Positions 17,644 to 32,000 of a stretch of 32,000 nucleotides of DNA are shown one piece after another. Location of the stretch: NCBI GenBank assembly GCA_026002795.1, contig BPGA01000001.1:60001-92000 (forward strand), given 5' to 3'. Source of the DNA: Candidatus Saccharimonadota bacterium (lineage in GTDB: Archaea; Nanobdellota; Nanobdellia; Pacearchaeales; GW2011-AR1). Numbering within the stretch: the stretch's first letter is position 1; the number at the start of each line of letters is the position of its first letter. A model generated the notes under the pieces. It saw nothing but the letters and a program-made list of their open reading frames with translations, was not told where the DNA came from and ran no database searches. The translations under genes and the position numbers were made by a program.

Positions 17644-17817
17644 AAAAATAAGCGTCTTTAAAAAAATGTTTTTTTGATTTTAAAAATTTCTCTTTATATT
17701 TCTGAAAATTTTAACTAACTATTTCATAAGTTTATTATAGTTTTAAAATGATTATTTATAAATTTAAGAATTTTAGAGGAATTAAAATTTATTTTTATTA
17801 TATATTATGGTATTTTT

Positions 17818-19378: not shown

Positions 19379-20749
19379 TTAAGTAATTTGCAGATCCAAG
19401 CAAGCTCTATAGGTCCTGTATTTTTGTGTTGACTCGCAAGATGCTTGATTATTAATTGATCCACAGTTAGCTCCTGTGTCAATTACAAGAGAATCTCCAG
19501 TAAATTCTCCTGGATCACAGTTAGGAACAGAATATCCTGGATCATAACAAATAGAAAGTCCAGTATCCCATAAACAATAATTTTGTAAGTTTTGCTTAAC
19601 TTCTAAGTTAATTGTTGCTCTTTTGTTGTCTGTTCCGAATGTTCCACTTCTTATGTTGTTTCCTGATATGATTGCGTTACCAGCTACCTCAAGTTTTTCT
19701 CCAGGATTCGTCGTGCCGATGCCGACGTAGCCGGTAGTCTTAATTACAAATTCTGGAGAGGTAAAACTGGAGTCTGTTGTTTTTCCTGTTCCAATAGCAA
19801 AGTCGCTGGTGCTATATACTGTACCAATTGACCAAGGGTAGTTTCCTGATCTAATTAGATTTATATATTGGCCGCTAGCTGCTGGTTTGGTTATTACAAG
19901 GTCACCATTATAACCATTGTCTGGACTAGAACTACTTGAAATAGTTACGCGTCCTCGAACATCCAACTTCTGGCTTGGCCCCGTCGTGCCTATGCCGACG
20001 TTGCCCATTATATATGAATTTCCTGTTCCGTCTATTTGCAGAACGCTAGAGGTTTTTACAACGTTAGCAGTGTCAAGCAACCTTGCCCAGCCCCCCCAGG
20101 AACCAGTAGTTTGACTATATCTGTGCCAAATATTTCCACTTGAACCAAATGCTAATTGATGAACTCCCCCACCACTCCAGTCTGTTCCAGAACTCCATTG
20201 TCTATAAGTTAGAAGCCCGCTGTAAGTTCCTTCACCAGAAAGTCCAATCACACTATTATATTTAAACTCAGGTACCACCCCCATATAATACTGCTCCGGA
20301 TTATAGTTATTGTTTCTTGTATCAGAACTTCCAAGCACTCCCATTAATACATTTCCTGTTAAAGGAGGCGAACCTACTCTTAAATTCCCGCCTTGTACAT
20401 CCAACTTTGCTCCCGGCCCCGTCGTCCCGATGCCGACGTTGCCGCTAACAAATAAATTTTGTCCACATGTATCGCAACCTATACGTACTCTACCAGAAGA
20501 TGCTCCGAGTACTAAATCATTACTAGCGCCCCCCGAATTAGTTTCTGCATAAAGACCTACATAGTTCCATGCAGTTCCGATTCTTAATCTACCTCTGCCG
20601 CTACCTACATCCTCATTTCCTTGAACGTGCATATTGTTTTCAACCCAGACATCAGTAGCATATATATTTGCACCAGCACCATTTACAGCAAGTTTTACTT
20701 GTGGATTCGTCGTCCCGATGCCGACGTTGCCGGCTTCTCGAATAACCAT
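19379..20749 (-). CDS. 3'-terminal segment of fibre gene B: GNVGIGTT-repeat protein with a Cys-rich C-terminal domain
   Basis: 456-aa ORF with four anchor motifs (19710, 19983, 20421, 20709) spaced in multiples of 3. The C-terminal ~70 aa carry 8 Cys. The annotated Met is internal: the same frame continues upstream through two TGA stops. Confidence 0.7.
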   Translation of the reverse strand: MVIREAGNVGIGTTNPQVKLAVNGAGANIYATDVWVENNMHVQGNEDVGSGRGRLRIGTAWNYVGLYAETNSGGASNDLVLGASSGRVRIGCDTCGQNLFVSGNVGIGTTGPGAKLDVQGGNLRVGSPPLTGNVLMGVLGSSDTRNNNYNPEQYYMGVVPEFKYNSVIGLSGEGTYSGLLTYRQWSSGTDWSGGGVHQLAFGSSGNIWHRYSQTTGSWGGWARLLDTANVVKTSSVLQIDGTGNSYIMGNVGIGTTGPSQKLDVRGRVTISSSSSPDNGYNGDLVITKPAASGQYINLIRSGNYPWSIGTVYSTSDFAIGTGKTTDSSFTSPEFVIKTTGYVGIGTTNPGEKLEVAGNAIISGNNIRSGTFGTDNKRATINLEVKQNLQNYCLWDTGLSICYDPGYSVPNCDPGEFTGDSLVIDTGANCGSINNQASCESTQKYRTYRACLDLQIT

Positions 20750-21132
20750 TGCCGGAGATGTATAACCTCATGTTGGTCCATTATTTACCCTGAACATGTT
20801 ACCGCCATTATCGCCTAAAGCTGATTTGTGGTTGCGTCATGACACATATCCGAAATTGTCAGTATCTGCAGAAAAACTGAAAGCAGGAGCAGCAGCTGTT
20901 CCATTAGCAGCCTGAATTACTCTTCCAGATGTTATTACTGTAGTACCTCCTATTTGTAAATTACCTGAGACTAAATTTAATGAATCACCACTTGCTAAAT
21001 CTAATGCTATTTGCAGCTCCTCTAAACAACTGGTACATCTGGATTAAAGTAAAGATTAGCTGTTGTATTTATTGAACCAATAACATCTAATGTTTGTTGT
21101 GGTGTTGTCGTCCCAATCCGACGTTGCCAGAG
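20750..21132 (-). pseudogene. disrupted fibre-gene segment linking ORF 21133..23682 to ORF 19379..20749
   Basis: Homologous to intact sequence at 29875..30123, but with +1 insertions near 21006 and 21034. There is a 1-nt deletion inside the anchor at 21107..21128. In-frame TGA stops lie at 20837..20839 and 20768..20770. Confidence 0.7.
20856..21106 (-). repeat. module R1, copy a
   Basis: Near-identical to 29875..30123 apart from point differences and two +1 insertions. Encodes ...TPQQTLDV.GSINTTANLYFNPDVQLFRGAANRLDLASGDSLNLVSGNLQIGGTTVITSGR... Confidence 0.85.
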
Positions 21133-21342
21133 TTATCTAATACCAACACATTGCCCAACCCACTCGACCAGTAACAATAAGTCACCTCCTGTTCCTGCTC
21201 CATGAAGTGTCTCATTAGCAGAAATGATGTCCCAAGCCCTATCACCGCTTCTCTCTATTCTCAGTCTACCGGCATTTCCATTTGAGTCGCCGAAGAGGTG
21301 GAATTGTACTCCTGGATTCGTCGTCCCGATGCCGACGTTGCC
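21129..21342 (-). repeat. module R4, copy a (214 bp)
   Basis: Identical to 31328..31540 except for one extra t at 21172. Similarity stops exactly at the outer ends of the anchors. Confidence 0.9.
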
Positions 21343-23682
21343 GTTTTCGTCGACAGCGACTGCTAAAAGATTTCCTTGTGTATTAGTTAGCGCATTCTTT
21401 AAAGTTCCTGTAGCAACAAAAGATCCATCAATTAAAAATCCTCTAATTTCACAGTGGGGTTGGTTTGCTGTATCATCAAGCAAACATTCAACTGCTTTGT
21501 CTAAAGTTTCTGTGTTGTTTGCTCCTTCAAATATTGCTGCATATGGTCTTCTTGAACCGCTATTAGGTGATAATTGTGCTTTGTATAATCCAAGTCTTCC
21601 AAATGCAGAATCTAAATTAGTAGTAACTGCGCTCTCCCATGCGTCATAAGATGTTAAAATTCCAATTTGGTCTTTTCTTAGGTTGTTTAATGCTGTTGCT
21701 AAATTATCTGACTGTGTGGAGTTTCCATAAGTATCATAAGTGTTGTCGGATACTATAGTGTGGTTTGCTTTCCATATAATCGTTAACCTAAGACCTCTTC
21801 CAGAAGTGTCATAAACTGTTGTATTGCCTATCTTTAAAACTCTGTTTGCATTATTGTTTAATCCAGTACCTCTTATATAAATTGGAACTATTTTCGATAT
21901 AACATTTGTTCCTAGTGAATTAATTTCACATGTTCCATCAGCATTACAAGCTAATGCATTGCTTGCTGTTCCGCTTAATGTTCCATAAATAGTTCCAGTA
22001 GCTCTAATATCTCCAGCAACATCCAATTTATAAGCCGGACTTGCTGTCCCGATGCCGACGTTGCCGCTAGTTATTCTCATTCTTTCAACATTGTTTGTGT
22101 ATATAGCCAAATTACCATCAGATATCCACTGAAGTCCTGTATCGCTATCTCCAACGGCAAGAGATATTACTGGCGAACCACCCAAACCACTTCCACCTCT
22201 TACAAAGAGATTATTGTTGATATTAACATTTCCAGCAACTTGCAATTTTTCAGAAGGTGCTGTCGTCCCGATGCCGACGTTGCCATTCCAATTTTTTATA
22301 TAAATTGTTCCGTATTCGTTGTCATCTGGTGAGACTTCACGTATCTCAGGATAAGCAAACTGTACTTTATCACCTGCAACACCTGAGTAACAATAACCAA
22401 AACGAATGATCGCGTAAGCTGCATTACTTGGCATCCTCCAATCAGTTCCTATGGTTTTACTGGATTGAACATCCGAAATCCCATCCGCATTCGCATCAGT
22501 CACATATGAAGGATCAAGAAATCCATTCACTTTTCTCCAATCGCTTGAAGTAGTGGTAGTAGCCCAGAAATAAGGATTGTCCCAGGCTCCTGTAATGCGA
22601 TTATTGTTACTATCATAAACATAAAATCCAAGATACTTATAGCCAGATGTTCCAACTGTTTGCCTCATCCAAACACTGAATTCATATTTTTTATTTGGGT
22701 CTATTTTTACTCTTTTTTGATAATACGCCCATTGATAACAGCTTCCTGAATTTCCATTAGAGGTGCTTTCAAGAGCTTTAATCTGGGAACCATCAGTAAA
22801 AGTTGTTGTGACAGTAGTGACACTACCCCATGCATCAGAATCTCCCAAGTTAGTAGATGATTCTAGGAGGTTTGCACCGGCAATATTTTTAGCAGCTACA
22901 CCTCCAGCAATTTCAAGTTTGACATTTGGCGCTGTCGTCCCGATGCCGACGTTGCCGAGGCTTGTTATTACCATTCTATCGTTCCAACCATCAGTCCCCC
23001 TTGTCGTAAAGTACAAATCACCATAAGAATTTACGTGGTCTGTAATTTTGCCAGAAACATAACCTATAATTCCATTTGCCCCAGCAAAAGCAAGGGATGC
23101 GAAATTTCCAGCTGTACTATTAGTGTTTCTTAATTCAAGCGAGTTGCCGGTGCCTCCTGTGCCAGTTGATGTTTGCGGATTGATTATTACCAAACCTCTT
23201 GCAGAAGCACCACCGGTAGATATACTTGCTGCATAGCCTCCAGTATTTCCAGCTACTACCGTTAGCTTTTCTCCCGGCGCCGTCGTCCCGATGCCGACGT
23301 TGCCTGTTGTTGTCAAAACTAACCCTGTGCCGGTTTGCGGATTTAATCTGAAATTACCTGTATCGTCGACTCCGGTCCAAAATTGACGCGATGTAGAATC
23401 ATACCACTCAATATAATTCCACTTGCTTGTTGGAGAATCTGTCTGTCGCAATCTCAGTATGTTATCCGCTGTGGAAGATATTTCCAGCGGCGATCCGGGT
23501 CCCGTCGTCCCGATGCCGACGTTGCCGCCAAGATAGATATTTGTAGTCCCACCAGGGATTGCTATGAGATCAACACCATTTCTGTTTGTTATATCAACAT
23601 CGTAAGTCGTACCGTTACCAGCAATCACAAGACCAGAACCAGAATTGTAATACATCACTCCTCCACTAAAAGCCCCGGCCAA
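21133..23682 (-). CDS. fibre gene B central segment: GNVGIGTT-repeat protein with CBM-like and ILEI/GG-lectin-like inserts
   Basis: 849-aa ORF with 6 anchors in frame (21320, 22043, 22262, 22934, 23282, 23504). The apparent TTG start is internal. The C-terminus is cut by a +1 insertion (extra t at 21172 relative to the copy at 31328..31540). Confidence 0.75.
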   Translation of the reverse strand: MAGAFSGGVMYYNSGSGLVIAGNGTTYDVDITNRNGVDLIAIPGGTTNIYLGGNVGIGTTGPGSPLEISSTADNILRLRQTDSPTSKWNYIEWYDSTSRQFWTGVDDTGNFRLNPQTGTGLVLTTTGNVGIGTTAPGEKLTVVAGNTGGYAASISTGGASARGLVIINPQTSTGTGGTGNSLELRNTNSTAGNFASLAFAGANGIIGYVSGKITDHVNSYGDLYFTTRGTDGWNDRMVITSLGNVGIGTTAPNVKLEIAGGVAAKNIAGANLLESSTNLGDSDAWGSVTTVTTTFTDGSQIKALESTSNGNSGSCYQWAYYQKRVKIDPNKKYEFSVWMRQTVGTSGYKYLGFYVYDSNNNRITGAWDNPYFWATTTTSSDWRKVNGFLDPSYVTDANADGISDVQSSKTIGTDWRMPSNAAYAIIRFGYCYSGVAGDKVQFAYPEIREVSPDDNEYGTIYIKNWNGNVGIGTTAPSEKLQVAGNVNINNNLFVRGGSGLGGSPVISLAVGDSDTGLQWISDGNLAIYTNNVERMRITSGNVGIGTASPAYKLDVAGDIRATGTIYGTLSGTASNALACNADGTCEINSLGTNVISKIVPIYIRGTGLNNNANRVLKIGNTTVYDTSGRGLRLTIIWKANHTIVSDNTYDTYGNSTQSDNLATALNNLRKDQIGILTSYDAWESAVTTNLDSAFGRLGLYKAQLSPNSGSRRPYAAIFEGANNTETLDKAVECLLDDTANQPHCEIRGFLIDGSFVATGTLKNALTNTQGNLLAVAVDENGNVGIGTTNPGVQFHLFGDSNGNAGRLRIERSGDRAWDIISANETLHGAGTGGDLLLLVEWVGQCVGIR

Positions 23683-24197
23683 CCTTGAGACGATGAAATT
23701 TTTAATCTTCCCGCAACTTCAAGTTTTTCATTCGGACTCGTCGTTCCAATGCCGACGTTGCCTGAAGTATCTATAATCATTCGCGTATTTCCCGTTTGTC
23801 TAAATTCTATCGGTTCATTTGCATTATCTAAAGTTTCAATAATTAATTTAGATAAACCAGTTCCATCTCCTGTTGATTCAAAACGTATACTTCCAGCATC
23901 AGTATTTGCATCCCATCTTAATCCATAATTATTGTCTATATGTATGTTGCCCCCAGAAACATGTAATTTTCCCGCGGGTCCCGTCGTCCCGATGCCGACG
24001 TTGCCAGCGTTAGTAATTTGAAATGCGTTCCATCCTGCGCCACTTGTCCAGAAACCGACATTTGCGCCATTCTGCCCGACAAACATAGTCTTACCATTAT
24101 CTAACCATACACCACCGTCTCCACCAGCGTCACCTGTATGAATACGACCGGAAACTCGTAAATCAACAGTAGTGCCACCCCCGCCAACTACATTCAA
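23655..24197 (-). CDS. fibre gene B fragment (GNVGIGTT repeats)
   Basis: 180-aa ORF with anchors at 23740 and 23983. It overlaps both neighbouring fragments out of frame, which implies frameshifts near 23.68-23.74 kb and inside the anchor at 24214. Confidence 0.65.
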   Translation of the reverse strand: MNVVGGGGTTVDLRVSGRIHTGDAGGDGGVWLDNGKTMFVGQNGANVGFWTSGAGWNAFQITNAGNVGIGTTGPAGKLHVSGGNIHIDNNYGLRWDANTDAGSIRFESTGDGTGLSKLIIETLDNANEPIEFRQTGNTRMIIDTSGNVGIGTTSPNEKLEVAGRLKISSSQGWPGLLVEE

Positions 24198-24774
24198 CTT
24201 TGCTCCAGGTGTCGTCGTGCCGATGCCGACGTCTGCCTGTATTGCTATTCACAAAAAGAGTATTTGTGTCAACTGTGAAATTCTGTCCAACAACAACATT
24301 ATTATTAAATGTCTTATCTCCTGCAAAAATCTGCGTTCCTGTAGAAACAACTCCTGATTGTGTTGAAGAAGCATCTCTTATTGTAACATTACTTGCGCTT
24401 GTAATTCTTCCTTGAGCATCAACTGTGAATCTTCCCACTACAATATCTCCGCCATAAGTTCCTGCTGTTACTCCTGTGTTTGAAAGAGAGAAGGTTACAT
24501 TTCCGCTGCCAACAAGTCTATCTGTCAGTGTTCCTGAAATTGACATGCCTGTTCCTTGGACAATAGATCCTTTAACAAAACCAGCGCTTGTGTTAACTTC
24601 CTGAAGCTGACTTAATGTTACAGCATCTTGTGCAGATGTTCCATTTGCAAGATTAATGATTTTGTTGTTGTCCATGTTTATTGTTCCGTTGAAAACAGCA
24701 GAACCATTTACATGGAGTTTTTGTTGTGGTGTTGTTGTTCCAATGCCGACATAGTTTGTGTTGGTAATTGTCAA
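24163..24774 (-). CDS. fibre gene B fragment carrying tail-fibre-like module R2a
   Basis: 203-aa ORF. VTAGTYGGDIVVGRFTVDAQGRITSASNVTI resembles motifs I recall from phage tail-fibre proteins. It terminates because the anchor at 24214..24237 has a 1-nt insertion (GTCTGCC instead of GTTGCC). Confidence 0.65.
   Translation of the reverse strand: MTITNTNYVGIGTTTPQQKLHVNGSAVFNGTINMDNNKIINLANGTSAQDAVTLSQLQEVNTSAGFVKGSIVQGTGMSISGTLTDRLVGSGNVTFSLSNTGVTAGTYGGDIVVGRFTVDAQGRITSASNVTIRDASSTQSGVVSTGTQIFAGDKTFNNNVVVGQNFTVDTNTLFVNSNTGRRRHRHDDTWSKVECSWRGWHYC
24238..24756 (-). repeat. module R2, copy a (519 bp)
   Basis: Anchor-to-anchor segment. Aligns without indels to 25142..25660, with scattered substitutions and one ~30-nt divergent patch. 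Its last 140 nt (24617..24756) recur at 29659..29798. Confidence 0.9.
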
Positions 24775-25118
24775 GAATCGTTACTCTTGACTTGTTCCTC
24801 CTCGCTGGAGCAATACGACCAATATCAAAGAGATCGTTGATAGAATCAAGCGTCAAAACCCAGGATGGACCATTTATGTCTCGCCTGCGTCGGTACTTGA
24901 TGAGATGCACTAAAACTAGTTTCAAGTTTGCCCCTAAGGCCACATTCTCGTCTTTCCCCAGCTGCAAGCAATATGTCAGTACCGATTCGTCGTTGAAAGC
25001 CGATTAGTAGCCGAGGAGTATTGGAATCTAATTCGTCCGCCATCGTAGCTCCGTTGCACCTGAAGCGGTGGCTCCCCCAATGCACCCGCTTGAATATCGA
25101 GTTTTGCCTGCCGGTGTT
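24757..25118 (-). pseudogene. GC-rich degraded module between the two R2 copies
   Basis: No single long frame. Three overlapping ORFs in different frames (24653..24967, 24768..25007, 24846..25085). Removing one A from the AAAA run just downstream of anchor 25119 gives PAGKLDIQAGALGEPPLQVQRSYDGGRIRFQYSSATNRLSTTNRY*. Confidence 0.55.
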
Positions 25119-25579
25119 GTCGTCCCGATGCCGACTCTATCTGTATTGCTGTTCACAAAAAGCGTATTTGTGTCAACTGTGAAATTCTGTCCAACAACAA
25201 CACTATTATTAAATGTCTTAGCTCCTGCAAAAGTCTGCGTTCCTGTAGAAACAACTCCTGATTGTGTTGCAGAAGCATCTCTTATTGTAACATTACTTGC
25301 GCTTGTAATTCTTCCTTGATTATCAACTGTGAATCTTCCCACTACAATATCTCCGCCATAAGTTCCTGCTGTTACTCCTGTGTTTGAAAGAGAGAAAGTT
25401 ACATTTCCGCTGCCAACAAGTCTATCTGTCAGTGTTCCTGAAATTGACATGCCTGTTCCTTGGACAATAGATCCTTTAACAAAACCAGCGCTTGTGTTAA
25501 CTTCCTGAAGCTGACTTAATGTTACAGCATCCTGAGGGTTTGTTGCATTAGCAAGGTTGATGATTTTGTTATTGTCCAT
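25028..25579 (-). CDS. fibre gene B fragment carrying module R2b
   Basis: 183-aa ORF nearly identical to 24163..24774 over R2. The frame stays open upstream of the annotated Met through the anchor at 25638. Confidence 0.65.
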   Translation of the reverse strand: MDNNKIINLANATNPQDAVTLSQLQEVNTSAGFVKGSIVQGTGMSISGTLTDRLVGSGNVTFSLSNTGVTAGTYGGDIVVGRFTVDNQGRITSASNVTIRDASATQSGVVSTGTQTFAGAKTFNNSVVVGQNFTVDTNTLFVNSNTDRVGIGTTTPAGKTRYSSGCIGGATASGATELRWRTN

Positions 25580-25660
25580 GTTTATTGTTCCGTTGAAAAC
25601 AGCAGAACCATTTACATGGAGTTTTTGTTGTGGTGTTGTTGTTCCAATGCCGACGTTGCC
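25142..25660 (-). repeat. module R2, copy b (519 bp)
   Basis: See R2a. The two copies are separated by the GC-rich segment 24757..25118 plus the anchor at 25119. Confidence 0.9.
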
Positions 25661-25738
25661 GCCTGCATCTATTCTAAACCTTTCACATACCTGCTGTTGA
25701 ACAATGCAAGCTGGTTTGTTGTTGGCAAAAACATTCCG

Positions 25739-25989
25739 TTGTCAGTATCTGCAGAAAAACTGAAAGCAGGAGCAGTCGCTGTCTCCATTAGCAGCCTGAA
25801 TTCATTCTTCCAGATGTTATTACTGTAGTACCTCCTATTTGTAAATTACCTGAAACTAAATTTAATGAATCACCAGTTGCTAAATCTAATCTATTTGCAG
25901 CTCCTCTAAACAACTGTACATCTGGATTAAAGTAAAGATTAGCTGTTGTATTTATTGAACCTACAACATCTAATGTTTGTTGTGGTGTT
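25739..25989 (-). repeat. module R1, copy b
   Basis: Near-identical to 29875..30123 with two +1 insertions. The homology extends over 25521..26012 versus 29659..30146. Confidence 0.85.
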
Positions 25990-26144
25990 GCTGTTCCAAT
26001 GCCGACTCTGCCTGAAGTATCATTAACAAACAAATCATTAGTAACATTAAGACTTAGTCCTCCTGTTCCGCTACCTTGTATTTCAAGTTTTGCACTCGGA
26101 CTCGTCGTCCCGATGCCGACGTTGCCGGAAGTTGTTAATCGCAT
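25788..26144 (-). CDS. fibre gene B fragment (modules R3a + R1b)
   Basis: 118-aa ORF with anchors at 26104 and 25990. It is truncated by +1 insertions in R1b relative to R1c. Confidence 0.6.
   Translation of the reverse strand: MRLTTSGNVGIGTTSPSAKLEIQGSGTGGLSLNVTNDLFVNDTSGRVGIGTATPQQTLDVVGSINTTANLYFNPDVQLFRGAANRLDLATGDSLNLVSGNLQIGGTTVITSGRMNSGC
26013..26126 (-). repeat. module R3, copy a (114 bp)
   Basis: Roughly 90% identical by eye to 31214..31327. Encodes .P.AKLEIQGSGTGGLSLNVTNDLFVNDTSG. Confidence 0.85.
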
Positions 26145-26619
26145 AACCTCTGTTCCAATACTAGTGCTTGAGCCTATAGCAAACCTTAGATCGTAAGGAG
26201 AACCAGTGAAGCCCGCCCTCCAAACACCACTGGCTTCAGATCCTTGCGACCAAGTAAGCCATGCTTGGTCAGCATCTAAAGTTTTGTAATTTTGCTAGCA
26301 ATAGATCTCGAACTACCTGCAGCTTCGCCCCCGGATTCGTCGTCCCGATGCCGACGTTGCCTGATGTTGTCATTCTTATTATCTTCAACTACCGTTTCCA
26401 AATGCTACACTGATTGTTTGACCACATACCTATTAATAACCTGTTCGCAACGTCATTCCCGTCCCTCCTGAGATCCTTGAATATTAGCTATCGATTATAA
26501 GCATATCTGGCTCTCCCATCCGAGTGAAGTTATTATACCAGCCATTAGCAACCACTAAGCATGTCTTGTCTGCTCCAGATCTATAGCAGTGATTCGTTCA
26601 CTTATAATATTCTCAGAGT
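26145..26619 (-). pseudogene. decayed fibre-gene remnant between the LamG gene and fibre gene B
   Basis: Contains a perfect anchor (26339..26361) and coding-like patches (e.g. MTTSGNVGIGTTNPGAKLQVV), but stops in all frames. Confidence 0.55.
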
Positions 26620-28260
26620 CTACCGATTCTCCTGAGGCAAGAGGTCGAATTGTACTCCTGGCCCCGTCGTCCCGATGCCGACGTTGCCGCCTGTAGTTAT
26701 GTGAACTAAGTTGTTAATATGTGTATTAACTTGATTATCATTGTTGATATAGAGATCATTTCCTATAGCTTGGATTTCGTTAGCATCAAGATGAATACCA
26801 GCTGTGCCCCCAGAGTTTAAAATTTGCAATACTCCAGATCCTACACCTGTATTTACATCACTATCAGACCTAAGCCTCACATCTCCGACTACTTCTAATT
26901 TTTCTGTTGGATTCGTCGTTCCAATGCCAACGTTGCCGTTAAATATAACATCCCTATTTGTTTTTAAGTTCATTGCTTGGAACCATTGAGATCCATTATA
27001 ATAACTAAAAATTAGTTGATCAGGTTCGCCACTATATTGACTCCCTCTCTTTGTTATAACCCAAAAAGCATTTGAACCGGATTCTCTAAATTCCATTTGA
27101 GGAGAGCTTGGACCTGTTGGAGAAGTGCCTTCTATTTTAATAATAGAGCTAACAACATGTAACTTCGCCCCCGGCGTCGTCGTCCCGATGCCGACGTTGC
27201 CGCTTGTTCCGTTGGCAAAGAAAAATACAGAATTGGTTGTATTCACAAGTCTAAATATATCTGAAGTAATTGTGTTTTGTTGAATGCCTCTTAAATACTG
27301 GAGTTTTATTTCTTCTTCACTTAAAGCTCTATCATAAACTCTTACCTCATCAATTACTCCTGAAAATGGTCTAGGATCTGTTGTTATCCAAATTCCGATA
27401 TTTAAATTTCCTGTTCCAAAATTTAAGTTGCCGCCAGAAAGTGTTCTAATTCCATCAAGAATTCCATTAAGATAAATCCTCATTTCAAATGTTGAATTGT
27501 CATAAGTTGCGGCAATATGATACCATCTGTTATTTGATAGTGTTGTGTTTGCAGAAAGTGTTTGTTGTGTTCCGTTGTTTATACTTAAAAATAATTTGTT
27601 GTTAAAAATTCTGAAGTAATTTGATGAAGGAGACTCTCTTCCAAAGATCATCTGATCATTTGAGACTGCTGTTGGGTATATCCAAGCTTCCCAGGTTAAT
27701 GATTTTGCGTTGTTTAGTGCTTGAGATGTCGTTACACTGACATAGCTTCCGTTATTTGATGCTAGTCTTGTAAAGTTTAAAGCAATTCCCATTTTTCCTG
27801 ATGTAAATGTTGGATTAATGCAAGAAGTTCCTACACAAGTAAGAGTACCGTCTGTGCCAAATGGACCTCTGTCATAAGTTAAGCTACCAGAACCTTCTGA
27901 AAAAGGTAGATAAAGCATTAAACCATCTGGAGTTGCATATCCTGGCTGGAATATTGTACTATTTGTTATAATGGTGCCACTTACATTAAGTAAACCCTCA
28001 ATATTTGTATTCCCAGAGGCATTAATATCCTTAACAAAAAGCGCTGTAATTCTATTGGTTAAACTTCCAAGAAAACCAAAAAAGCCGTAATTTGATGTTG
28101 AAACATTGCCTAGTACAGTAAGATTTCCTGTGTCTCCATGAATTCTTACAAGATCTGTTCCAGTTTGATTCTGGAACCTATAATCTCCTGCTGAAACAAA
28201 GTTTATGCTAGTTGCAATTAATAAAATTATTAAAATTTCCGCTAAATAACCTCTTTTCAT
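26620..28260 (-). CDS. secreted LamG/concanavalin-A-like lectin domain protein with C-terminal GNVGIGTT repeats
   Basis: Signal peptide MKRGYLAEILIILLIATSINFVSA. LamG-like core (LYLPFSEGSG...ALNF...SLTWEAWIYPT...WYHIAATYD...IYLNGILDG...GVIDEVRVYDRALSEEEI). Three anchors (27179, 26915, 26666). It ends 12 codons into a module that is much longer in the other copies. Confidence 0.8.
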   Translation of the reverse strand: MKRGYLAEILIILLIATSINFVSAGDYRFQNQTGTDLVRIHGDTGNLTVLGNVSTSNYGFFGFLGSLTNRITALFVKDINASGNTNIEGLLNVSGTIITNSTIFQPGYATPDGLMLYLPFSEGSGSLTYDRGPFGTDGTLTCVGTSCINPTFTSGKMGIALNFTRLASNNGSYVSVTTSQALNNAKSLTWEAWIYPTAVSNDQMIFGRESPSSNYFRIFNNKLFLSINNGTQQTLSANTTLSNNRWYHIAATYDNSTFEMRIYLNGILDGIRTLSGGNLNFGTGNLNIGIWITTDPRPFSGVIDEVRVYDRALSEEEIKLQYLRGIQQNTITSDIFRLVNTTNSVFFFANGTSGNVGIGTTTPGAKLHVVSSIIKIEGTSPTGPSSPQMEFRESGSNAFWVITKRGSQYSGEPDQLIFSYYNGSQWFQAMNLKTNRDVIFNGNVGIGTTNPTEKLEVVGDVRLRSDSDVNTGVGSGVLQILNSGGTAGIHLDANEIQAIGNDLYINNDNQVNTHINNLVHITTGGNVGIGTTGPGVQFDLLPQENR

Positions 28261-28655
28261 TTTAATTTTTTCTCGACAAATTTAATTAACATGTCTATGA
28301 TTTTCTTAATGTCATTTTCGTTGTTTACCAAAAAATCCTCGGTAATTTTTTTGCCATAGTAGACAATATCATTCCTAAACTTCCTTAGATTATCAATAAG
28401 TTTTGCATAAGAATCATCAATTTCATAATTCTCAACAAAATAATCTAATAATTTCACATGACTAAGTGTTTTATATCCATCAGAATACATAACTGCTGTC
28501 AATAATTCTTTAATTATTTCATAGTATTCTTCAATAAACTTGTAAGGCTTATCTCTTGGAAGAATTTTTATGATTTCTAATCTATCCTTTGCCATTTTAA
28601 ATAAGTCTTTAGCTCTTTCTTTATCTTTTGAAATTTTGAATATCTCTTTCATCAC
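28257..28655 (-). CDS. HEPN-domain protein (putative toxin partner of the MNT)
   Basis: 132-aa all-helical ORF. LRKFRNDIVYYG sits where the HEPN R-x4-6-H motif belongs, but with Tyr in place of His. Its stop overlaps the LamG gene start (ATGA), and its start overlaps the MNT stop. Confidence 0.6.
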   Translation of the reverse strand: MMKEIFKISKDKERAKDLFKMAKDRLEIIKILPRDKPYKFIEEYYEIIKELLTAVMYSDGYKTLSHVKLLDYFVENYEIDDSYAKLIDNLRKFRNDIVYYGKKITEDFLVNNENDIKKIIDMLIKFVEKKLK

Positions 28656-29230
28656 AAACCTCCGTAAAGCACTAAACCATTCTTTATTTTTTTTTGAATA
28701 TTCTTATCTAGCTTAGAAAAATCATCTAGGATAATCACTCTAATTCTTCTTTTTAAAACACTTTCAAATTTGGAAAAATCAATCTCTTTCTTTATTTTAG
28801 AAACAACAAAAAAATCAATATCGCTTGATTCTACATCCTCTCCTCTTAAATAAGATCCAAATAAGATTATTGCTTTTGGATGAAGCTCATTAATAATTTT
28901 GTCTCTTAATTCCTTCAAAGAAAGAATGTTATAAGACATTTTTAACCATATAAAAGAGTCATTTTCTCTATTAGCGACATATCCGTCAAACGGCTTAGAT
29001 TTCCTCTTAATTATAAGCCCTTTCTTAGTTAGTTCTCTTATATAGTTTCTAACAGAAGGGTGTGCTAATTTTATCTTTTTACTTATCTCTTTTATGAAAT
29101 GTATTGTAGTTGGCTCTCTAAAGAACACCTCTAAAACCCGGATATAGCTACATTTAACCATATGGTATAATAATGTACCCTTTGGTATATAAATATTCCC
29201 TTTGGCTATTTTAACTTTATTGAATTCCAT
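28652..29230 (-). CDS. winged-HTH + minimal nucleotidyltransferase (MNT, NTP_transf_2-like)
   Basis: LFGSYLRGEDVESSDIDFFVV is the GS-x-n-DxD Pol-beta-type NTase signature. The N-terminal SVRNYIRELTKKGLIIKR looks like a wHTH. The start lies 1 nt after the stop of fibre gene A. Confidence 0.75.
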   Translation of the reverse strand: MEFNKVKIAKGNIYIPKGTLLYHMVKCSYIRVLEVFFREPTTIHFIKEISKKIKLAHPSVRNYIRELTKKGLIIKRKSKPFDGYVANRENDSFIWLKMSYNILSLKELRDKIINELHPKAIILFGSYLRGEDVESSDIDFFVVSKIKKEIDFSKFESVLKRRIRVIILDDFSKLDKNIQKKIKNGLVLYGGL

Positions 29231-29231
29231 T

Positions 29232-30632
29232 TTATATTCTAAATATCATATCACCTCCTTGAGTAAAAACACGGGCTGAACCTATGAACATTGTTTGAGT
29301 AACATTCGCATCACCAACAACATTTAGAGTGTTTTGTGGAGTGCTTGTGTTTATGCCAAGTCTTTCTGTTGTATTGTTCCAGAATAGTTTAGCATTATTT
29401 TGGCTTAAAACACCGTTAGCTCCTGCAAAAATTAAAGAGCCTTGATTAAAGCTTGAAAGTGTTAATCCTGCAAATGTTGGACTTGATGTTGTGTTTATGT
29501 CTTGTGGAAGGCTAAATGTCCATTGCCTATTTTGAGTTAAATCTTGAGGCCCTGTTGGTGTTACTGAAATTTGATTTGCTGTTCCAATCATCTCAAGTGT
29601 TCTTGATTGTGGAACTGCGTTTGTTGCAGTTGAGTTTACTGATTGCAATTGTGAAAGTGTTACAGCATCTTGTGCAGATGTTCCATTTGCAAGATTAATG
29701 ATTTTGTTGTTGTCCATGTTTATTGTTCCGTTGAAAACAGCAGAACCATTTACATGGAGTTTTTGTTGTGGTGTTGTTGTAGCAATGCCGACGTTGCCGC
29801 TACTGTCTATTCTTACTCTTTCTAAACCTGCTGTTGAAAATGCAAGCTGATTTGTTGTTGGTATGAACATTCCGTTGTCAGTATCTGCAGAAAAACTGAA
29901 AGCAGGAGCAGCAGCTGTTCCATTAGCAGCCTGAATTACTCTTCCAGATGTTATTACTGTAGTACCTCCTATTTGTAAATTACCTGAGACTAAATTTAAT
30001 GAATCACCGCTTGCTAAATCTAATCTATTTGCAGCTCCTCTAAACAACTGTACATCTGGATTAAAGTAAAGATTAGCTGTTGTATTTATTGAACCAACAA
30101 CATCTAATGTTTGTTGTGGTGTTGTTGTTCCAATGCCGACTCTGCCTGTGTTTCCTACAAAAGTTACAAACTCTGAATTAGAATCATTTAAAAAGGCTAA
30201 CCTATAATCTCCTGCACCAGAATTCCAGTTAACAATGTTCCTTAATTTTATATCTCTTGTTGCCTGAACAACTCCTCCAGCACTTACGTTGCTGTCATAT
30301 TTTCCTCTGAAAATCACATCAGGAGAGTCTGAACTTGAATTATCTGCTACATCGTTTGCAAGTGCTATAGCACTTCTTGAAAATAAGATATCACGCCACC
30401 TATAACTAGAATTTCCTAAATCAAAACTATTATCTAAATCAGGAATTAAGCTTCCATTAATTTCTAAGTTATTAACTTGAAGTGCAGAAATATTAACAAA
30501 ATAACCTGTTCTGAGCATAAATATCCCCACCAATAATTGAAAGCCCACCATTCTGCCAACCACCATTAAAATCAAAATTGCCATATACAGATGTGTTAAG
30601 TGGCATGAAAAAGCTAGAGTCATAACCATCAA
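29232..30632 (-). CDS. fibre gene A, 3' segment (modules R1c, R2-like N-part, unique tail-fibre-like C-terminus)
   Basis: 466-aa ORF. The first ~45 aa are out-of-frame read-through: the true frame joins ORF 30493..31089 via a 1-nt indel near 30509 (...GGDIYAQ|TGYFVNISALQVNNLEINGS). Anchors at 30124 and 29776. Confidence 0.7.
   Translation of the reverse strand: MMVMTLAFSCHLTHLYMAILILMVVGRMVGFQLLVGIFMLRTGYFVNISALQVNNLEINGSLIPDLDNSFDLGNSSYRWRDILFSRSAIALANDVADNSSSDSPDVIFRGKYDSNVSAGGVVQATRDIKLRNIVNWNSGAGDYRLAFLNDSNSEFVTFVGNTGRVGIGTTTPQQTLDVVGSINTTANLYFNPDVQLFRGAANRLDLASGDSLNLVSGNLQIGGTTVITSGRVIQAANGTAAAPAFSFSADTDNGMFIPTTNQLAFSTAGLERVRIDSSGNVGIATTTPQQKLHVNGSAVFNGTINMDNNKIINLANGTSAQDAVTLSQLQSVNSTATNAVPQSRTLEMIGTANQISVTPTGPQDLTQNRQWTFSLPQDINTTSSPTFAGLTLSSFNQGSLIFAGANGVLSQNNAKLFWNNTTERLGINTSTPQNTLNVVGDANVTQTMFIGSARVFTQGGDMIFRI
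29875..30123 (-). repeat. module R1, copy c (intact frame)
   Basis: Reference copy, in frame within ORF 29232..30632. Confidence 0.85.
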
Positions 30633-31089
30633 GTTTGTCTGCGTTTACATTAGTTAAGCCAGAACCATTTCCTGAAAAAGTTCCATAAATTGTTCCTGTT
30701 GCATTAATGTCACCTATAACATTCAACTTATTTGCAGGTGTTGTCGTTCCGATGCCGACGTTGCCTGTGTTTGAATTTACAAACAAAACATTAGAGCCTA
30801 CTGTGAGGTTGTTGTTAATAACTGCATTGTTTCTTATTGTTGTTGTTCCTGAAGAAGCTCCAAGTCTTAAGGTTGTTGCAGCTCCACCAATGTCAAGAGT
30901 TGTTGCAGTTGTATTTATTAAAGCGAAAGTTGTTGATGGTGTTGTTATATTTGAAATTATTGATGGACTTGTTAATGTTGGTGTGTTATTAAAAACAAGA
31001 GCTCCAGAACCTGTTTCATCTGTTACAGACAGAAGCAACATTAGCAGAAGAAATTGTAGAAACAAGATTTGAAGAAGAATCTGTTGCAA
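30493..31089 (-). CDS. fibre gene A, middle segment
   Basis: 198-aa ORF. Contains NVNADKLDGYDSSFF (a tail-fibre-like motif) and the anchor at 30743. It overlaps both neighbours out of frame. Confidence 0.65.
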   Translation of the reverse strand: MQQILLQILFLQFLLLMLLLSVTDETGSGALVFNNTPTLTSPSIISNITTPSTTFALINTTATTLDIGGAATTLRLGASSGTTTIRNNAVINNNLTVGSNVLFVNSNTGNVGIGTTTPANKLNVIGDINATGTIYGTFSGNGSGLTNVNADKLDGYDSSFFMPLNTSVYGNFDFNGGWQNGGLSIIGGDIYAQNRLFC

Positions 31090-32000
31090 CCAACCTATTT
31101 GCTGTTAATCCTGAAATTCTTGCGTTTGTTCCATAAATTGTTCCTGTTGCATTAATGTCACCAACAACATTCAACTTATTTGAAGGTGTTGTTGTTCCAA
31201 TACCAACATTACCTGAAGTGTCATTAACAAACAAATCATTAGTAACATTAAGACTTAGTCCTCCTGTTCCGCTACCTTGTATTTCAAGTTTTGCCCCCGG
31301 CGCCGTCGTTCCAATGCCGACGTTGCCAGAGTTATCTAATACCAACACATTGCCCAACCCACTCGACCAGAACAATAAGTCACCTCCTGTTCCTGCTCCA
31401 TGAAGTGTCTCATTAGCAGAAATGATGTCCCAAGCCCTATCACCGCTTCTCTCTATTCTCAGTCTACCGGCATTTCCATTTGAGTCGCCGAAGAGGTGGA
31501 ATTGTACTCCTGGATTCGTCGTCCCGATGCCGACGTTGCCAGTGCTGGTTATTGCCATCATGTCCCCTGGTCCCGGCGTCCATAACCTTGCTACATTCCC
31601 TATGCTATACCAGACATATTTTTGACCCGCTCCTGCACTAACATTTGGAGTAAATCCTCGGTCGTAGAACGATAGAGATGCGCCGGTTCCTGCGGATGAA
31701 ATTTCACCACCCTGATTGATATTTCCAGATATAATAGCTCCAGTGGCATCAGCAACGATAGCACCTACAACGTGAAGTTTAGTTTCAGGATTCGTCGTCC
31801 CGATGCCGACGTTGCCTGGTATTATCATTCCATCGCTTGGCGGCACAGTTCCTGCATATGAACCAACTGAGAGACCTCCTGTTGCTCCTGATACCGCATA
31901 AATACCTAACTTTCTGTTGCCGTTTATCCACACTGCGAGCGGATCGCCTGTATTTGCATTCTCAAAAACTAAATGGGCATTGTCTGTAGTGTCTTGGTCA
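31016..32000 (-). CDS. fibre gene A, 5'-ward segment (partial, runs off the window)
   Basis: The ORF-track entry 31016..31933 starts at an internal GTG. I translated 31934..31999 in the same frame (DQDTTDNAHLVFENANTGDPLA) and found no stop. Anchors at 31794, 31518, 31305, 31191. Confidence 0.7.
   Translation of the reverse strand, partial: DQDTTDNAHLVFENANTGDPLAVWINGNRKLGIYAVSGATGGLSVGSYAGTVPPSDGMIIPGNVGIGTTNPETKLHVVGAIVADATGAIISGNINQGGEISSAGTGASLSFYDRGFTPNVSAGAGQKYVWYSIGNVARLWTPGPGDMMAITSTGNVGIGTTNPGVQFHLFGDSNGNAGRLRIERSGDRAWDIISANETLHGAGTGGDLLFWSSGLGNVLVLDNSGNVGIGTTAPGAKLEIQGSGTGGLSLNVTNDLFVNDTSGNVGIGTTTPSNKLNVVGDINATGTIYGTNARISGLTANRLVATDSSSNLVSTISSANVASVCNR
31214..31327 (-). repeat. module R3, copy b (114 bp)
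   Basis: See R3a. The flanking modules differ between the two copies. Confidence 0.85.
31328..31540 (-). repeat. module R4, copy b (213 bp, intact frame)
   Basis: See R4a. Encodes NPGVQFHLFGDSNGNAGRLRIERSGDRAWDIISANETLHGAGTGGDLLFWSSGLGNVLVLDNS. Confidence 0.9.

What the first reader, a model, noticed from the sequence alone, without database searches (positions are those of the whole stretch)
30681..31213. Internal control: one module occurs once with the GC-rich anchor and once with a fully AT-recoded anchor
Segments 30681..30765 and 31129..31213 (85 nt each) are the same module. The 62 nt before the anchor differ at only 3 positions. The anchors differ at 6 of 23 positions: GTCGTTCCGATGCCGACGTTGCC versus GTTGTTCCAATACCAACATTACC. 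All six differences are synonymous third-position changes, and both anchors encode GNVGIGTT. This shows the peptide does not need the GC-rich DNA form, and that the anchor can evolve or be converted independently of its flanks. The AT form matches what genome-typical codon usage would produce, which makes the GC form in the other copies the anomaly.
Basis: seen in the sequence. Interest (0 to 1): 0.7.

Follow-up and report, generated by a model that had tools for sequence, protein, structure and literature searches.

The report
GC-locked recombination anchor in fibre genes
In the tail-fibre-like surface-protein genes of a tiny symbiotic archaeon, a 23-base GC-rich DNA word that encodes a structural loop is kept almost letter for letter against the genome's AT-rich codon habits and sits where gene modules get swapped. 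One copy that has lost every G/C third letter shows the protein does not need that spelling, and the same DNA word occurs unchanged in many bacteria, archaea and viruses.

Summary
Segments 30681-30765 and 31129-31213 differ at 3 of 62 flank bases and 6 of 23 anchor bases. All six anchor changes are synonymous, and both anchors encode GNVGIGTT.

The window comes from a Pacearchaeota genome. Positions 19379-32000 (minus strand) hold a cluster of MAT/S74-type tail-fibre-like genes with 29 such anchors. GC3 is 0.79 in anchors, 0.24 in the surrounding fibre codons and 0.17 in housekeeping genes, so the GC form is the anomaly.

The AT copy is a chimera. Its upstream flank is 98% identical to the 25990 unit and its downstream flank 95% identical to the 30743 unit, yet its anchor differs from each by six bases. 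It is exactly the transition derivative of the GC form.

Homology blocks in the window end at anchors, and so do the blocks shared with an intact gene on contig L104 and about 29% of block ends in 475 other loci (null 7%). The exact GC 23-mer recurs in CPR bacteria, DPANN archaea, other bacteria and viral contigs, far above codon-usage expectation.

Best reading: in-frame recombination anchors homogenised by conversion. The force that keeps them GC-rich is unresolved. GC-form and AT-form anchors are equally enriched at breakpoints.

The parts
30681..30765 (-). Module copy A: 62-nt downstream flank (TTTPANKLNVIGDINATGTIYG) plus GC-form anchor
31129..31213 (-). Module copy B: 62-nt downstream flank (95% identical to copy A) plus the AT-recoded anchor; a chimeric junction unit
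31191..31213 (-). AT-form anchor GGTAATGTTGGTATTGGAACAAC (coding sense). All 7 third positions are A/T. It is the exact transition derivative of the GC form.
30743..30765 (-). GC-form anchor GGCAACGTCGGCATCGGAACGAC (one difference from the consensus)
31214..31327 (-). Block upstream (coding sense) of the AT anchor, homologous to 26013-26126. The first 60 nt are 98% identical. The block runs anchor to anchor.
25984..26126 (-). Paralogous anchor-to-anchor block (90% identical to 31185-31327), bounded by anchors 25990-26012 and 26104-26126
19710..19732 (-). anchor (GYVGIGTT)
19983..20005 (-). anchor
20421..20443 (-). anchor, exact consensus GGCAACGTCGGCATCGGGACGAC
20709..20731 (-). anchor, exact consensus
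21107..21128 (-). Degenerate anchor with a 1-nt deletion, at the junction of two homology blocks (20818-21122 ~ 29844-30140; 21107-21342 ~ 31305-31540), in the promoterless fragment 20750-21132
21320..21342 (-). anchor, exact consensus; end of the 98.7% block shared with 31305-31540
22043..22065 (-). anchor (GNVGIGTA)
22262..22284 (-). anchor, exact consensus
22934..22956 (-). anchor, exact consensus
23282..23304 (-). anchor, exact consensus
23504..23526 (-). anchor, exact consensus; end of the block shared at 99.6% with L104
23740..23762 (-). anchor; junction point in the L104 mosaic
23983..24005 (-). anchor, exact consensus
24214..24236 (-). anchor variant (ADVGIGTT) carrying an indel relative to its paralogue at 25119; a frameshift lies here
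24734..24756 (-). anchor variant (NYVGIGTT); core GTCGGCAT retained
25119..25141 (-). anchor variant (DRVGIGTT); junction point in the L104 mosaic
25638..25660 (-). anchor (ATT GGA ACA variant); junction point in the L104 mosaic
25990..26012 (-). anchor variant (GRVGIGTA)
26104..26126 (-). anchor, exact consensus
26339..26361 (-). anchor, exact consensus, in a 40-codon open-frame fragment
26666..26688 (-). anchor, exact consensus
26915..26937 (-). anchor (GTT, ATT, GGA variant)
27179..27201 (-). anchor, exact consensus
29776..29798 (-). anchor variant (GNVGIATT)
30124..30146 (-). anchor variant (GRVGIGTT)
31305..31327 (-). anchor (ATT GGA variant)
31518..31540 (-). anchor, exact consensus
31794..31816 (-). 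anchor, exact consensus
19379..20749 (-). Fibre ORF, 456 aa, 4 anchors; starts directly at an anchor, no signal peptide
21133..24774 (-). Fibre reading frames 21133-23682, 23655-24197 and 24163-24774. They are one gene split by frameshifts, as shown by the intact L104 homologue.
25028..26388 (-). Fragmentary fibre frames (25028-25579, 25788-26144, 26269-26388) built from duplicated blocks
26620..28260 (-). Fibre ORF, 546 aa, with N-terminal hydrophobic segment, LamG domain and 3 anchors
29232..32000 (-). Second fibre gene tract (frames 29232-30632, 30493-31089, 31016-31933 and beyond), cut by the window end. It contains the two segments of the finding.

Best explanation
The two segments are copies of one module of tail-fibre-like (MAT/S74-type) surface-protein genes in a Pacearchaeota chromosome. 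The 23-nt anchor encodes the start of the fibre's capping-loop motif (VGIGTTxPxxKL).

Shown:
- In this locus the anchor is a DNA-level repeat held in one GC-rich spelling in 28 of 29 copies, against local codon usage.
- Stretches of near-identity between paralogous modules start and stop at anchors. This holds within the window, between the window and an intact gene on another contig (L104), and in hundreds of loci elsewhere.

Inferred: anchors are the crossover points for homologous recombination, unequal crossing-over and gene conversion that shuffle, duplicate and replace fibre modules in frame. The same exchanges keep the anchors homogenised.

Inferred, less securely: the GC spelling persists because conversion among many copies removes the frequent G/C->A/T transitions. 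This could work through GC-biased repair or through selection for a shared, stable pairing segment of about the minimal length for efficient homologous pairing. The spelling is shared across taxa by descent and horizontal transfer.

The AT copy at 31191-31213 is a derived anchor sitting exactly on a chimeric junction, in which every G/C third position has undergone a transition. It now shares only 2-nt runs with GC anchors, so it has dropped out of the exchanging pool. It therefore serves as a natural control showing that the peptide does not require the GC spelling.
For: Identity and protein family:
- RpoE' is 100% identical to a Candidatus Pacearchaeota MAG protein on a 535-kb contig. Archaeal housekeeping genes occupy 1-19000.
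- The proteins match PHROG tail-fibre families.
- A profile of the units hits solved Bdellovibrio MAT fibres (8OND E=2e-15; also 8OL4, 8OML, 8OJN, 8ON4).
- PMC10769870 defines the capping-loop motif V-G-G/N-pi-x-x-P-x-x-x-L.

Codon anomaly:
- GC3 is 0.789 in anchors, 0.244 in fibre flanks and 0.167 in housekeeping genes.
- The GC3 step covers only codons 0-7, and the invariant Pro two codons later has GC3 0.38.

Junction role:
- In all 8 unit pairs with one flank at least 92% identical, the other flank is much less similar: 25-40% identical in seven pairs and 60% in one.
- Block ends in the window's self-comparison fall on anchors.
- The intact 1007-aa L104 gene is W30806-30737 | W25657-25119 | W23756-23507 (the last block twice). 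Every junction overlaps an anchor.
- Across 475 loci, 29% of homology-block ends lie within 6 nt of an anchor against a 7% local null (n=629, excluding the window and L104).
- 11 of 158 blocks are anchor-to-anchor, against 0.9 expected.

Concerted evolution:
- Loci are internally coherent: all-GC, all-AT, or a private variant (for example L439, 7 of 12 anchors identical).

Spread:
- The genome hits are 68 CPR, 15 archaeal and 37 other bacterial (my hand tally of the record titles).
- In unbiased scans the exact 23-mer makes up 2-25% of GNVGIGTT sites at flank GC3 0.2-0.5, against 1e-6 to 1e-4 expected.
- In 359 GC-form units the 98%-conserved Pro has free codon choice.

AT copy:
- 6 of 6 G/C third positions changed in the anchor against 0 of 7 outside anchors in its flanks.
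Against: - GC-form and AT-form anchors are about equally enriched at block ends (3.5x against 2.8x). In unbiased loci the fraction of anchors carrying a block end does not differ. The GC spelling is therefore not needed for the breakpoint role, and its maintenance is not explained by that role alone.
- Block ends at anchors could also arise if recombination happens anywhere and only exchanges at domain boundaries survive selection.
- Unbiased conversion does not slow evolution of a family consensus. A bias or direct selection has to be assumed, and neither was measured.
- Identity of the word across domains of life needs extensive horizontal transfer, which is only inferred.
- No population data show ongoing exchange.
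- Several window frames are frameshifted, so part of the locus may simply be decaying. Alternatively, some of the sequence may carry assembly or sequencing errors.
Confidence: 0.55

Rival explanations
1. Nucleic-acid element: the anchor is conserved because the mRNA, or single-stranded DNA, forms a small hairpin (positions 6-10 pair with 20-24) or is otherwise read as nucleic acid, for example to pause translation at each capping loop or to be recognised by some factor.
For: - predicts a 5-bp stem with a 9-nt loop in the consensus (-6.0 kcal/mol).
- The AT copy keeps the same stem through two double changes (C6.G24->U.A and C9.G21->U.A).
- In GC-form units the base just beyond the searched 23-mer is G in 80%, which pairs with C6.
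- In AT-spelled anchors from 104 independent loci, the Val and Thr7 third bases are complementary (GTT/ACA or GTA/ACT) in 61% against 50% expected. One-sided p is about 0.02, and flank codon usage does not explain it.
Against: - Fold z-scores are unremarkable (-1.05 for the 24-mer, -0.1 to -2.9 in context).
- Third positions in the loop and the 5' tail (GGC, GGC, ATC, GGG) are as conserved as the stem positions.
- Several window anchors break the pairs (ACA with GTC).
- The second variable pair (6/24) shows no signal beyond the GC confound.
- The covariation p-value does not survive correction for the 10 pairs examined.
- No Rfam family matches.
- A factor common to bacteria, archaea and viruses is hard to imagine.
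Confidence: 0.15
2. Relic of transfer: the fibre family was imported from a GC-richer donor and is ameliorating. GC anchors are undecayed remnants and the AT anchor is simply the oldest or most decayed copy.
For: - Fibre flanks are slightly GC3-richer than housekeeping genes (0.24 against 0.17).
- There is a weak trend for AT-shifted anchors to lie in AT-richer flanks (rho -0.32, p=0.09).
- The family is widely shared between genomes and viruses.
Against: - GC3 drops from 0.6-0.97 to 0.24 within one codon on each side of the anchor, with no gradient. Synonymous sites of anchors and flanks should ameliorate together.
- The AT copy has the youngest flanks (95-98% identical to paralogues), not the oldest.
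- The same GC word persists in flanks with GC3 0.17-0.27 in unrelated CPR and DPANN genomes.
Confidence: 0.08
3. Short-tract gene conversion of the anchor alone: the AT anchor was pasted in from an AT-spelled family member elsewhere in the genome, leaving the flanks untouched.
For: - The anchor's history is decoupled from both flanks.
- AT-spelled and GC-spelled fibre genes can coexist in one genome (L119 Woesearchaeota).
- Single outlier anchors occur in other GC-form loci (L465, L146, L013).
Against: - The AT form is exactly what transitions alone would make from the GC form, including GGT twice where this genome prefers GGA. That is about 2% likely for an independent AT spelling (my arithmetic).
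- Outliers in other loci are not transition derivatives.
- A conversion tract would need homology inside flanks that are unrelated in other units.
- No donor is present in the window.
Confidence: 0.15
4. Codon-level translational selection: particular codons are chosen for accuracy, or as a rare-codon pause, at a structurally critical loop.
For: The first five codons are all C-ending (GGC AAC GTC GGC ATC), a pattern sometimes linked to accurate decoding. They are rare codons in this genome.
Against: - Equally conserved Pro, Leu and Val of the same motif show no codon preference.
- The same codons are kept in loci from 28% to 58% GC, where they are rare in some and common in others.
- Spelling is all-or-none per locus rather than graded with expression or tRNA pools.
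- The AT copy and many AT-form loci encode the same peptide.
Confidence: 0.05
5. Artefact: assembly chimeras or sequencing and polishing errors created the mosaic and the AT anchor.
For: - Several frames are frameshifted relative to L104.
- Repeated modules are hard to assemble.
- The source contig could not be retrieved for an independent check.
Against: - Six substitutions that are all synonymous in 23 nt are not an error pattern.
- The GC word and anchor-bounded blocks recur in hundreds of independent assemblies.
- Housekeeping genes in the same window are intact.
Confidence: 0.02

Closest known systems
Conserved-motif recombination in T-even phage tail-fibre adhesin genes (His boxes of gp37, glycine-rich motifs of gp38; Tetart et al. 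1996/1998, as summarised in PMC3157838)
   Same: - Short conserved motifs inside fibre or adhesin genes separate variable segments.
[quoted passage not shown]
- The result is in-frame swapping of host-recognition modules drawn from a wide pool.
   Different: - Here the motif is a different peptide (the GNVGIGTT capping loop).
- The conserved unit is a specific 23-24-nt spelling held against an AT-rich codon background.
- It is repeated up to about 30 times per locus.
- It is shared across CPR bacteria, DPANN archaea, other bacteria and viral contigs rather than within one phage group.
- No crosses have been done.
Bdellovibrio MAT (mosaic adhesive trimer) / S74-type trimeric fibre proteins and their capping loops (Caulton et al. 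2024, PMC10769870; PDB 8OND, 8OL4, 8OML, 8OJN, 8ON4)
   Same: - The peptide motif is the same: V-G-G/N-pi-x-x-P-x-x-x-L corresponds to VGIGTTxPxxKL.
- The unit profile hits these solved fibres.
- The proteins have a mosaic, tip-swapping architecture.
- The L104 homologue ends in an S74 chaperone-like domain.
   Different: - That work is structural and functional. It reports no nucleotide-level conservation and no recombination sites (one search finds no use of 'nucleotide' or 'shuffl').
- The host here is an archaeon.
- No S74 domain is detected in the window frames.
Cassette-based antigenic variation (Neisseria pilE/pilS, Borrelia vlsE, Mycoplasma MgPa repeats; from general knowledge)
   Same: A cluster of promoterless, partly out-of-frame gene fragments shares short conserved segments with an intact gene elsewhere (L104). 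Mosaic genes are built from them.
   Different: No expression site or one-way conversion has been shown. The fragments could be plain pseudogenes. The conserved segment is shared far beyond one species.
Concerted evolution with GC-biased gene conversion (from general knowledge, e.g. Lassalle et al. 2015 for bacteria)
   Same: Repeats that recombine most are GC-enriched at synonymous sites relative to their surroundings. Spelling is coherent within each locus.
   Different: Bias alone predicts any G/C at third positions, not one fixed word across phyla. It has not been measured in these lineages.

Membership tests
MAT / S74-type trimeric tail-fibre-like proteins | Capping-loop motif V-G-G/N-pi-x-x-P-x-x-x-L repeated along the fibre | tested here: met
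   29 copies of (G)(N)VGIGTTxPxxKLxV. The motif is defined in PMC10769870.
MAT / S74-type trimeric tail-fibre-like proteins | Sequence similarity to solved MAT fibres and phage tail-fibre families | tested here: met
   The unit profile hits 8OND (E=2e-15), 8OL4, 8OML, 8OJN and 8ON4. PHROG tail-fibre families 9942 and 18345 match at E down to 3e-23.
MAT / S74-type trimeric tail-fibre-like proteins | C-terminal S74 intramolecular chaperone (S74 subgroup) or an alternative tip domain | tested here: inconclusive
   No Peptidase_S74 hit in any window frame; LamG and CBM-like domains are present. The intact L104 homologue has a borderline S74 hit (22 bits, at the cut-off).
MAT / S74-type trimeric tail-fibre-like proteins | Intertwined trimeric beta-helix/beta-prism fold | not tested
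   No structure prediction was run. A monomer model of a trimeric fibre was judged uninformative.
Conserved-motif-mediated module exchange in fibre/adhesin genes (T-even type) | Conserved motif, also conserved as DNA, flanking variable segments | tested here: met
Conserved-motif-mediated module exchange in fibre/adhesin genes (T-even type) | Chimeric genes whose exchange points lie in or next to the motif | tested here: met
   Window paralogues, the L104 mosaic, and the global enrichment of 29% against 7%.
Conserved-motif-mediated module exchange in fibre/adhesin genes (T-even type) | Recombination at the motif observed directly (crosses or population variants) | not testable with these tools
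   No reads or population data are available. The source contig is not retrievable.
Silent-cassette antigenic variation system | One expressed gene plus promoterless silent cassettes | tested here: inconclusive
   There are many fragmentary or frameshifted frames and an intact mosaic gene on L104. It is unknown whether L104 belongs to the same genome.
Shufflon / invertase site-specific recombination | Inverted repeats of the crossover site plus a dedicated recombinase | tested here: not met
   All anchors are in one orientation. No inverted copies were found. No recombinase domain was found in the window ORFs scanned, apart from a weak HTH_7 hit 13 kb away.
Diversity-generating retroelement target | Reverse transcriptase with a template/variable repeat pair and adenine-specific changes | tested here: not met
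   No RT domain in the scanned window ORFs. The repeats are multi-copy mosaic blocks. The anchor changes are C->T/G->A transitions.
Known structured RNA family | Match to an Rfam covariance model | tested here: not met
   No hit at gathering threshold in 19000-32000.

The most novel reading that the evidence does not exclude
The 23-24-nt word GGCAACGTCGGCATCGGGACGAC(G) may be a cross-domain 'public' in-frame adaptor. On this reading it is a shared DNA standard kept at synonymous sites in the fibre genes of episymbiotic or predatory cells (CPR, DPANN, Bdellovibrio-like) and of environmental viruses. It would let host-recognition modules be exchanged by ordinary homologous recombination within and between genomes. 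Alternatively it may be read as nucleic acid, as a small conserved hairpin. Recoding it to AT, as at 31191, would lock a junction out of the exchange network.
Probability: 0.3. Interest if true: 0.85.

Novelty: new variant of a known kind. Interest (0 to 1): 0.65.

Why it matters
CPR bacteria and DPANN archaea live attached to other cells, and how they recognise and switch hosts is largely unknown. These fibre genes are plausible recognition devices.

A short DNA word held constant at synonymous sites marks where modules are exchanged and is shared with viruses and distant phyla. That would give a concrete, testable mechanism for rapid re-assortment of host-recognition modules. It would also give a simple sequence tag for finding such loci in metagenomes.

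It is also an unusually clean natural case of synonymous-site conservation inside coding sequence. The window supplies its own control, an AT-recoded copy with the same peptide. This can be used to separate selection on DNA from selection on protein, and to ask whether biased gene conversion operates in these lineages.

For engineering, the anchor suggests natural seams for swapping fibre modules.

Tried and rejected
- **Retrieving the source contig beyond 32000, or an independent assembly of the fibre region.** Five exact-protein look-ups found nothing. Only RpoE' was on record, on a 6.5-kb Logan contig from run DRR290133.
- **Literature searches for the peptide motif.** GNVGIGT, VGIGT and NVGIG, plus searches for nucleotide-level anchors in fibre genes, found nothing relevant. 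The motif was found only through PDB hits to the MAT paper.
- **Rfam.** No hit.
- **Are GC anchors better breakpoints than AT anchors?** No difference was found.
- **Does anchor AT content track flank GC3 in the window?** Weak and not significant (rho -0.32, p=0.09). Frameshifts add noise to this test.
- **Does L104 belong to the same genome?** The tetranucleotide correlation is 0.92, no better than for other low-GC CPR/DPANN loci, against 0.98 between the two halves of the window. Inconclusive.
- **Protein search with the 25028-25579 fragment.** It did not recover the L104 protein.
- **Cultured phages.** No exact GC word was found. There were only partial matches, in Synechococcus phages S-CRES1/2 ('chaperone of endosialidase') and S-CBP1 (tail fibre) and in one Mycobacterium phage minor tail protein.
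- **Whole-protein PDB search.** No hit; only the unit profile worked.
- **Considered and rejected.** Shufflon (single orientation), DGR (no RT), antisense ORFs on the plus strand (by-products of a stop-poor complement), and Chi-like or uptake-sequence roles (these depend on lineage-specific machinery, whereas this word crosses domains).
- **Structure prediction.** Not run.
Full report
**1. The observation**

One search aligns 30681-30765 with 31129-31213 without gaps. There are three mismatches in the first 62 nt and six in the last 23 nt.

On the minus strand both segments read GNVGIGTTTP(A/S)NKLNV(I/V)GDINATGTIYG. The six anchor changes are all third-position and synonymous (GGC AAC GTC GGC ATC GGA ACG against GGT AAT GTT GGT ATT GGA ACA).

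The similarity extends one base to the left. It continues more weakly for 29 nt beyond the anchor.

**2. What the region is**

Positions 1-19000 carry archaeal housekeeping genes: RpoE'/Rpb7, diphthamide synthase, ScpA, Lhr, ribonucleotide reductase with an NrdR-like protein, and thioredoxin. The RpoE' protein is 100% identical to one from a Candidatus Pacearchaeota MAG on a 535-kb contig.

From 19379 to the window end, the minus strand is a cluster of fibre genes and gene fragments, interrupted only by a nucleotidyltransferase/HEPN-like pair at 28257-29230. The evidence for the protein family is:
- The proteins match phage tail-fibre PHROG families.
- They contain YadA-stalk-like necks and LamG/CBM domains.
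- A profile of their repeated unit hits the solved Bdellovibrio MAT fibres 8OND, 8OL4, 8OML, 8OJN and 8ON4.
- The paper describing those fibres defines a 'capping loop' consensus V-G-G/N-pi-x-x-P-x-x-x-L on the edges of the trimeric beta-helix. This is the VGIGTTxPxxKL that follows each anchor here.

At the protein level, then, this is a member of a known kind.

**3. The anchor as DNA**

There are 29 anchors, all in one orientation. A thirtieth, at 21107-21128, carries a 1-nt deletion. Fourteen anchors are the identical word GGCAACGTCGGCATCGGGACGAC, and they sit between unrelated flanks.

GC3 values:

| Codon set | GC3 |
|---|---|
| Housekeeping genes | 0.167 |
| Fibre codons outside anchors | 0.244 |
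| Anchor codons | 0.789 |

Codon shares inside anchors against outside:

| Codon | In anchors | Outside anchors |
|---|---|---|
| GGC | 67% | 13% |
| AAC | 96% | 34% |
| GTC | 93% | 8% |
| ATC | 66% | 10% |
| ACG | 71% | 4% |

The higher overall G+C of this region therefore comes from amino-acid composition, not codon choice. Only the anchors are spelled GC-rich.

The step is sharp. GC3 is 0.14-0.34 (0.52 at the codon immediately before the anchor) up to the anchor and 0.62-0.97 in codons 0-7. It falls back to 0.24 at codon 8, and the invariant Pro has 0.38.

**4. History of the AT copy**

One search compares the flanks of all units. In each of the eight pairs with one flank at least 92% identical, the other flank is far less similar: 25-40% identical in seven pairs and 60% in one. 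Homology stops at the anchor.

The 31191 unit is a chimera:
- Its upstream 60 nt are 98% identical to the 25990 unit.
- Its downstream 63 nt are 95% identical to the 30743 unit.
- Its anchor differs from each of those two anchors at six positions.

In those near-identical flanks, none of the seven G/C third positions outside anchors has become A/T. All six in the anchor have (Fisher about 6e-4 by my calculation).

The AT spelling is exactly what transitions would make of the GC spelling. It uses GGT twice although this genome prefers GGA. Using the A/T-ending codon frequencies, an independent AT spelling would coincide with this only about 2% of the time (my arithmetic).

That favours an in-situ cluster of C->T/G->A changes at a recombination junction. 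Pasting from an independently evolved AT-type gene is less likely, but a donor outside the window cannot be excluded.

After recoding, the anchor shares only 2-nt runs with GC anchors. It can no longer pair with them.

**5. Anchors as junctions**

*Within the window.* Block ends fall on anchors repeatedly:
- 24208-24750 ~ 25113-25654, both ends at anchors.
- 21107-21342 ~ 31305-31540, both ends.
- 25984-26126 ~ 31185-31327, both ends.
- Four further blocks with one end at an anchor.

*Against contig L104.* L104 is BPJI01000003.1, labelled Candidatus Parcubacteria KatS3mg096. It carries an intact 1007-aa fibre gene with a signal-like N-terminus and an S74-like C-terminus. The gene is assembled from window blocks at 95-99.6% identity in a different order: W30806-30737, W25657-25119 and W23756-23507, the last block occurring twice in tandem. 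Each junction overlaps an anchor.

*Across the other loci.* In the 475 loci fetched from genomes, viruses and metagenomes:
- 29% of 629 unique homology-block ends lie within 6 nt of an anchor, against 7% for nearby random positions.
- 11 of 158 blocks run exactly from anchor to anchor, against 0.9 expected.

There is one caveat. Exchanges might occur anywhere and survive only at domain boundaries.

**6. The GC word beyond this genome**

By my hand tally of the record titles, the 120 genome hits break down as follows:
- 68 CPR/Patescibacteria.
- 15 archaea, mostly Woese-, Pace-, Aenigm- and Nanoarchaeota.
- 37 other bacteria, including Bdellovibrio relatives.

Several hits lie on contigs of 0.4-0.6 Mb, so they are chromosomal.

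Because that search is biased towards the GC spelling, I also scanned for GNVGIGTT in any spelling.
- Where flank GC3 is below 0.2, anchors are AT-spelled.
- Between 0.2 and 0.5, the exact GC word makes up 2-25% of sites, against 1e-6 to 1e-4 expected from flank codon usage.
- Loci are internally coherent: all-GC, all-AT, or a private variant such as L439.

In 359 distinct GC-form units the conservation ends with the anchor. The next Thr is ACG in 80%, but the 98%-conserved Pro uses all four codons.

GC anchors in AT-rich flanks recur in Saccharibacteria (L048, GC3 0.17), Nomurabacteria (L118) and Woesearchaeota. In the Woesearchaeota locus L119, an AT-spelled and a GC-spelled gene coexist.

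Cultured phages hardly carry the word. I found no description of this nucleotide-level conservation.

**7. Why GC?**

This is the weak point. GC- and AT-spelled anchors are equally enriched at block ends, so the junction role does not require GC.

The alternatives fare as follows:
- *Import followed by amelioration* is contradicted by the one-codon boundary.
- *Codon-level translational selection* is contradicted by the free codon choice at Pro, Leu and Val, and by conservation of the same codons in loci from 28% to 58% GC.
- *A small hairpin* (positions 6-10 with 20-24) is predicted. It is kept in the AT copy by two double changes. In AT-form anchors from 104 independent loci the Val/Thr7 third bases are complementary in 61% against 50% (p about 0.02). 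But the loop positions are equally conserved, several window anchors break the pairs, and the signal does not survive multiple-test correction.

The remaining account is conversion among many copies that removes the frequent G/C->A/T transitions. This could be through bias or through selection for a common pairing segment, with the word inherited and transferred horizontally. It fits the within-locus coherence and the transition-dominated variants, but it is inferred, not measured.

**8. Verdict**

The finding is real and its logic as an internal control is sound. Anchor and flanks are decoupled and the GC form is the anomaly, but anchor-only conversion is not shown, and the pair is a mosaic junction rather than one module with two anchors.

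The larger result is a conserved, in-frame, GC-spelled DNA word at the seams of modular fibre genes, shared across domains. I rate this a new variant of a known kind (motif-mediated module exchange in fibre genes). One question remains open: what holds the spelling.

Noticed in passing
L104:4127-7150 (minus strand): An intact 1007-aa fibre gene on a contig labelled Candidatus Parcubacteria KatS3mg096 is built from window blocks at 95-99.6% identity in a different order. It contains a 582-nt tandem duplication (5031-5289 and 5613-5863 both equal W23507-23764). Whether this is cross-domain transfer, a shared virus or plasmid, or mis-binning is open.
   Followed up: partly
window 23655-23690, 24214-24240, 21107-21172: Single-base indels break the fibre frames relative to paralogues or to L104: GGG->GG near 23680, one indel inside anchor 24214-24236, one inside anchor 21107-21128, and an extra T at about 21172. 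Two of the four lie inside anchors. They could be real pseudogenisation, imprecise joins, or sequence errors.
   Followed up: partly
L465, L023, L122 (anchor lists): A second DNA spelling, GGGAATGTGGGGATTGGGAC(G/A)AC, recurs as a lone outlier among GC-form anchors in unrelated loci. This suggests a second conserved word rather than random decay.
   Followed up: no
L119 (Woesearchaeota, 28% GC): One fibre gene has fully AT-spelled anchors (flank GC3 0.14) and a neighbouring gene has GC-spelled anchors (flank GC3 0.23). Both states can therefore coexist in one genome.
   Followed up: no
anchor positions 9 and 21 (Val and Thr7 third bases), loci L241-L535: In AT-spelled anchors the two third bases tend to be complementary (GTT with ACA, GTA with ACT): 61% against 50% expected in 104 independent loci. 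Flank codon usage does not explain this. It fits a predicted 5-bp hairpin, which the window's AT copy also keeps.
   Followed up: partly
window 28257-29230 (minus strand): A nucleotidyltransferase (with an N-terminal wHTH) plus a small HEPN-like partner sit in the middle of the fibre cluster with overlapping stop and start codons. They have typical low GC (28%) and look like a toxin-antitoxin-type pair.
   Followed up: no
window 20750-21132: The stretch between two fibre ORFs is a promoterless fragment. It is made of copies of 29844-30140 (95%) and the start of 31305-31540, joined at a damaged anchor.
   Followed up: partly
window 13989-17643: An NrdR-like regulator (Zn ribbon plus ATP-cone), a class II-like ribonucleotide reductase with a TSCPD domain, and a thioredoxin lie together. 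NrdR is usually thought of as bacterial.
   Followed up: no
Genome-contig hits L001-L120: The exact GC word is concentrated in organisms that live attached to or inside other cells. By my hand tally of the record titles, the hits are 68 CPR, about 12 DPANN, and two Bdellovibrio-like genomes. This fits a host-recognition role for these fibres.
   Followed up: partly
window 19379-20749: The 456-aa fibre ORF begins (MVIREAGNVGIGTT) practically at an anchor and has no signal peptide. It looks as if the gene start was created by truncation at a module seam.
   Followed up: no
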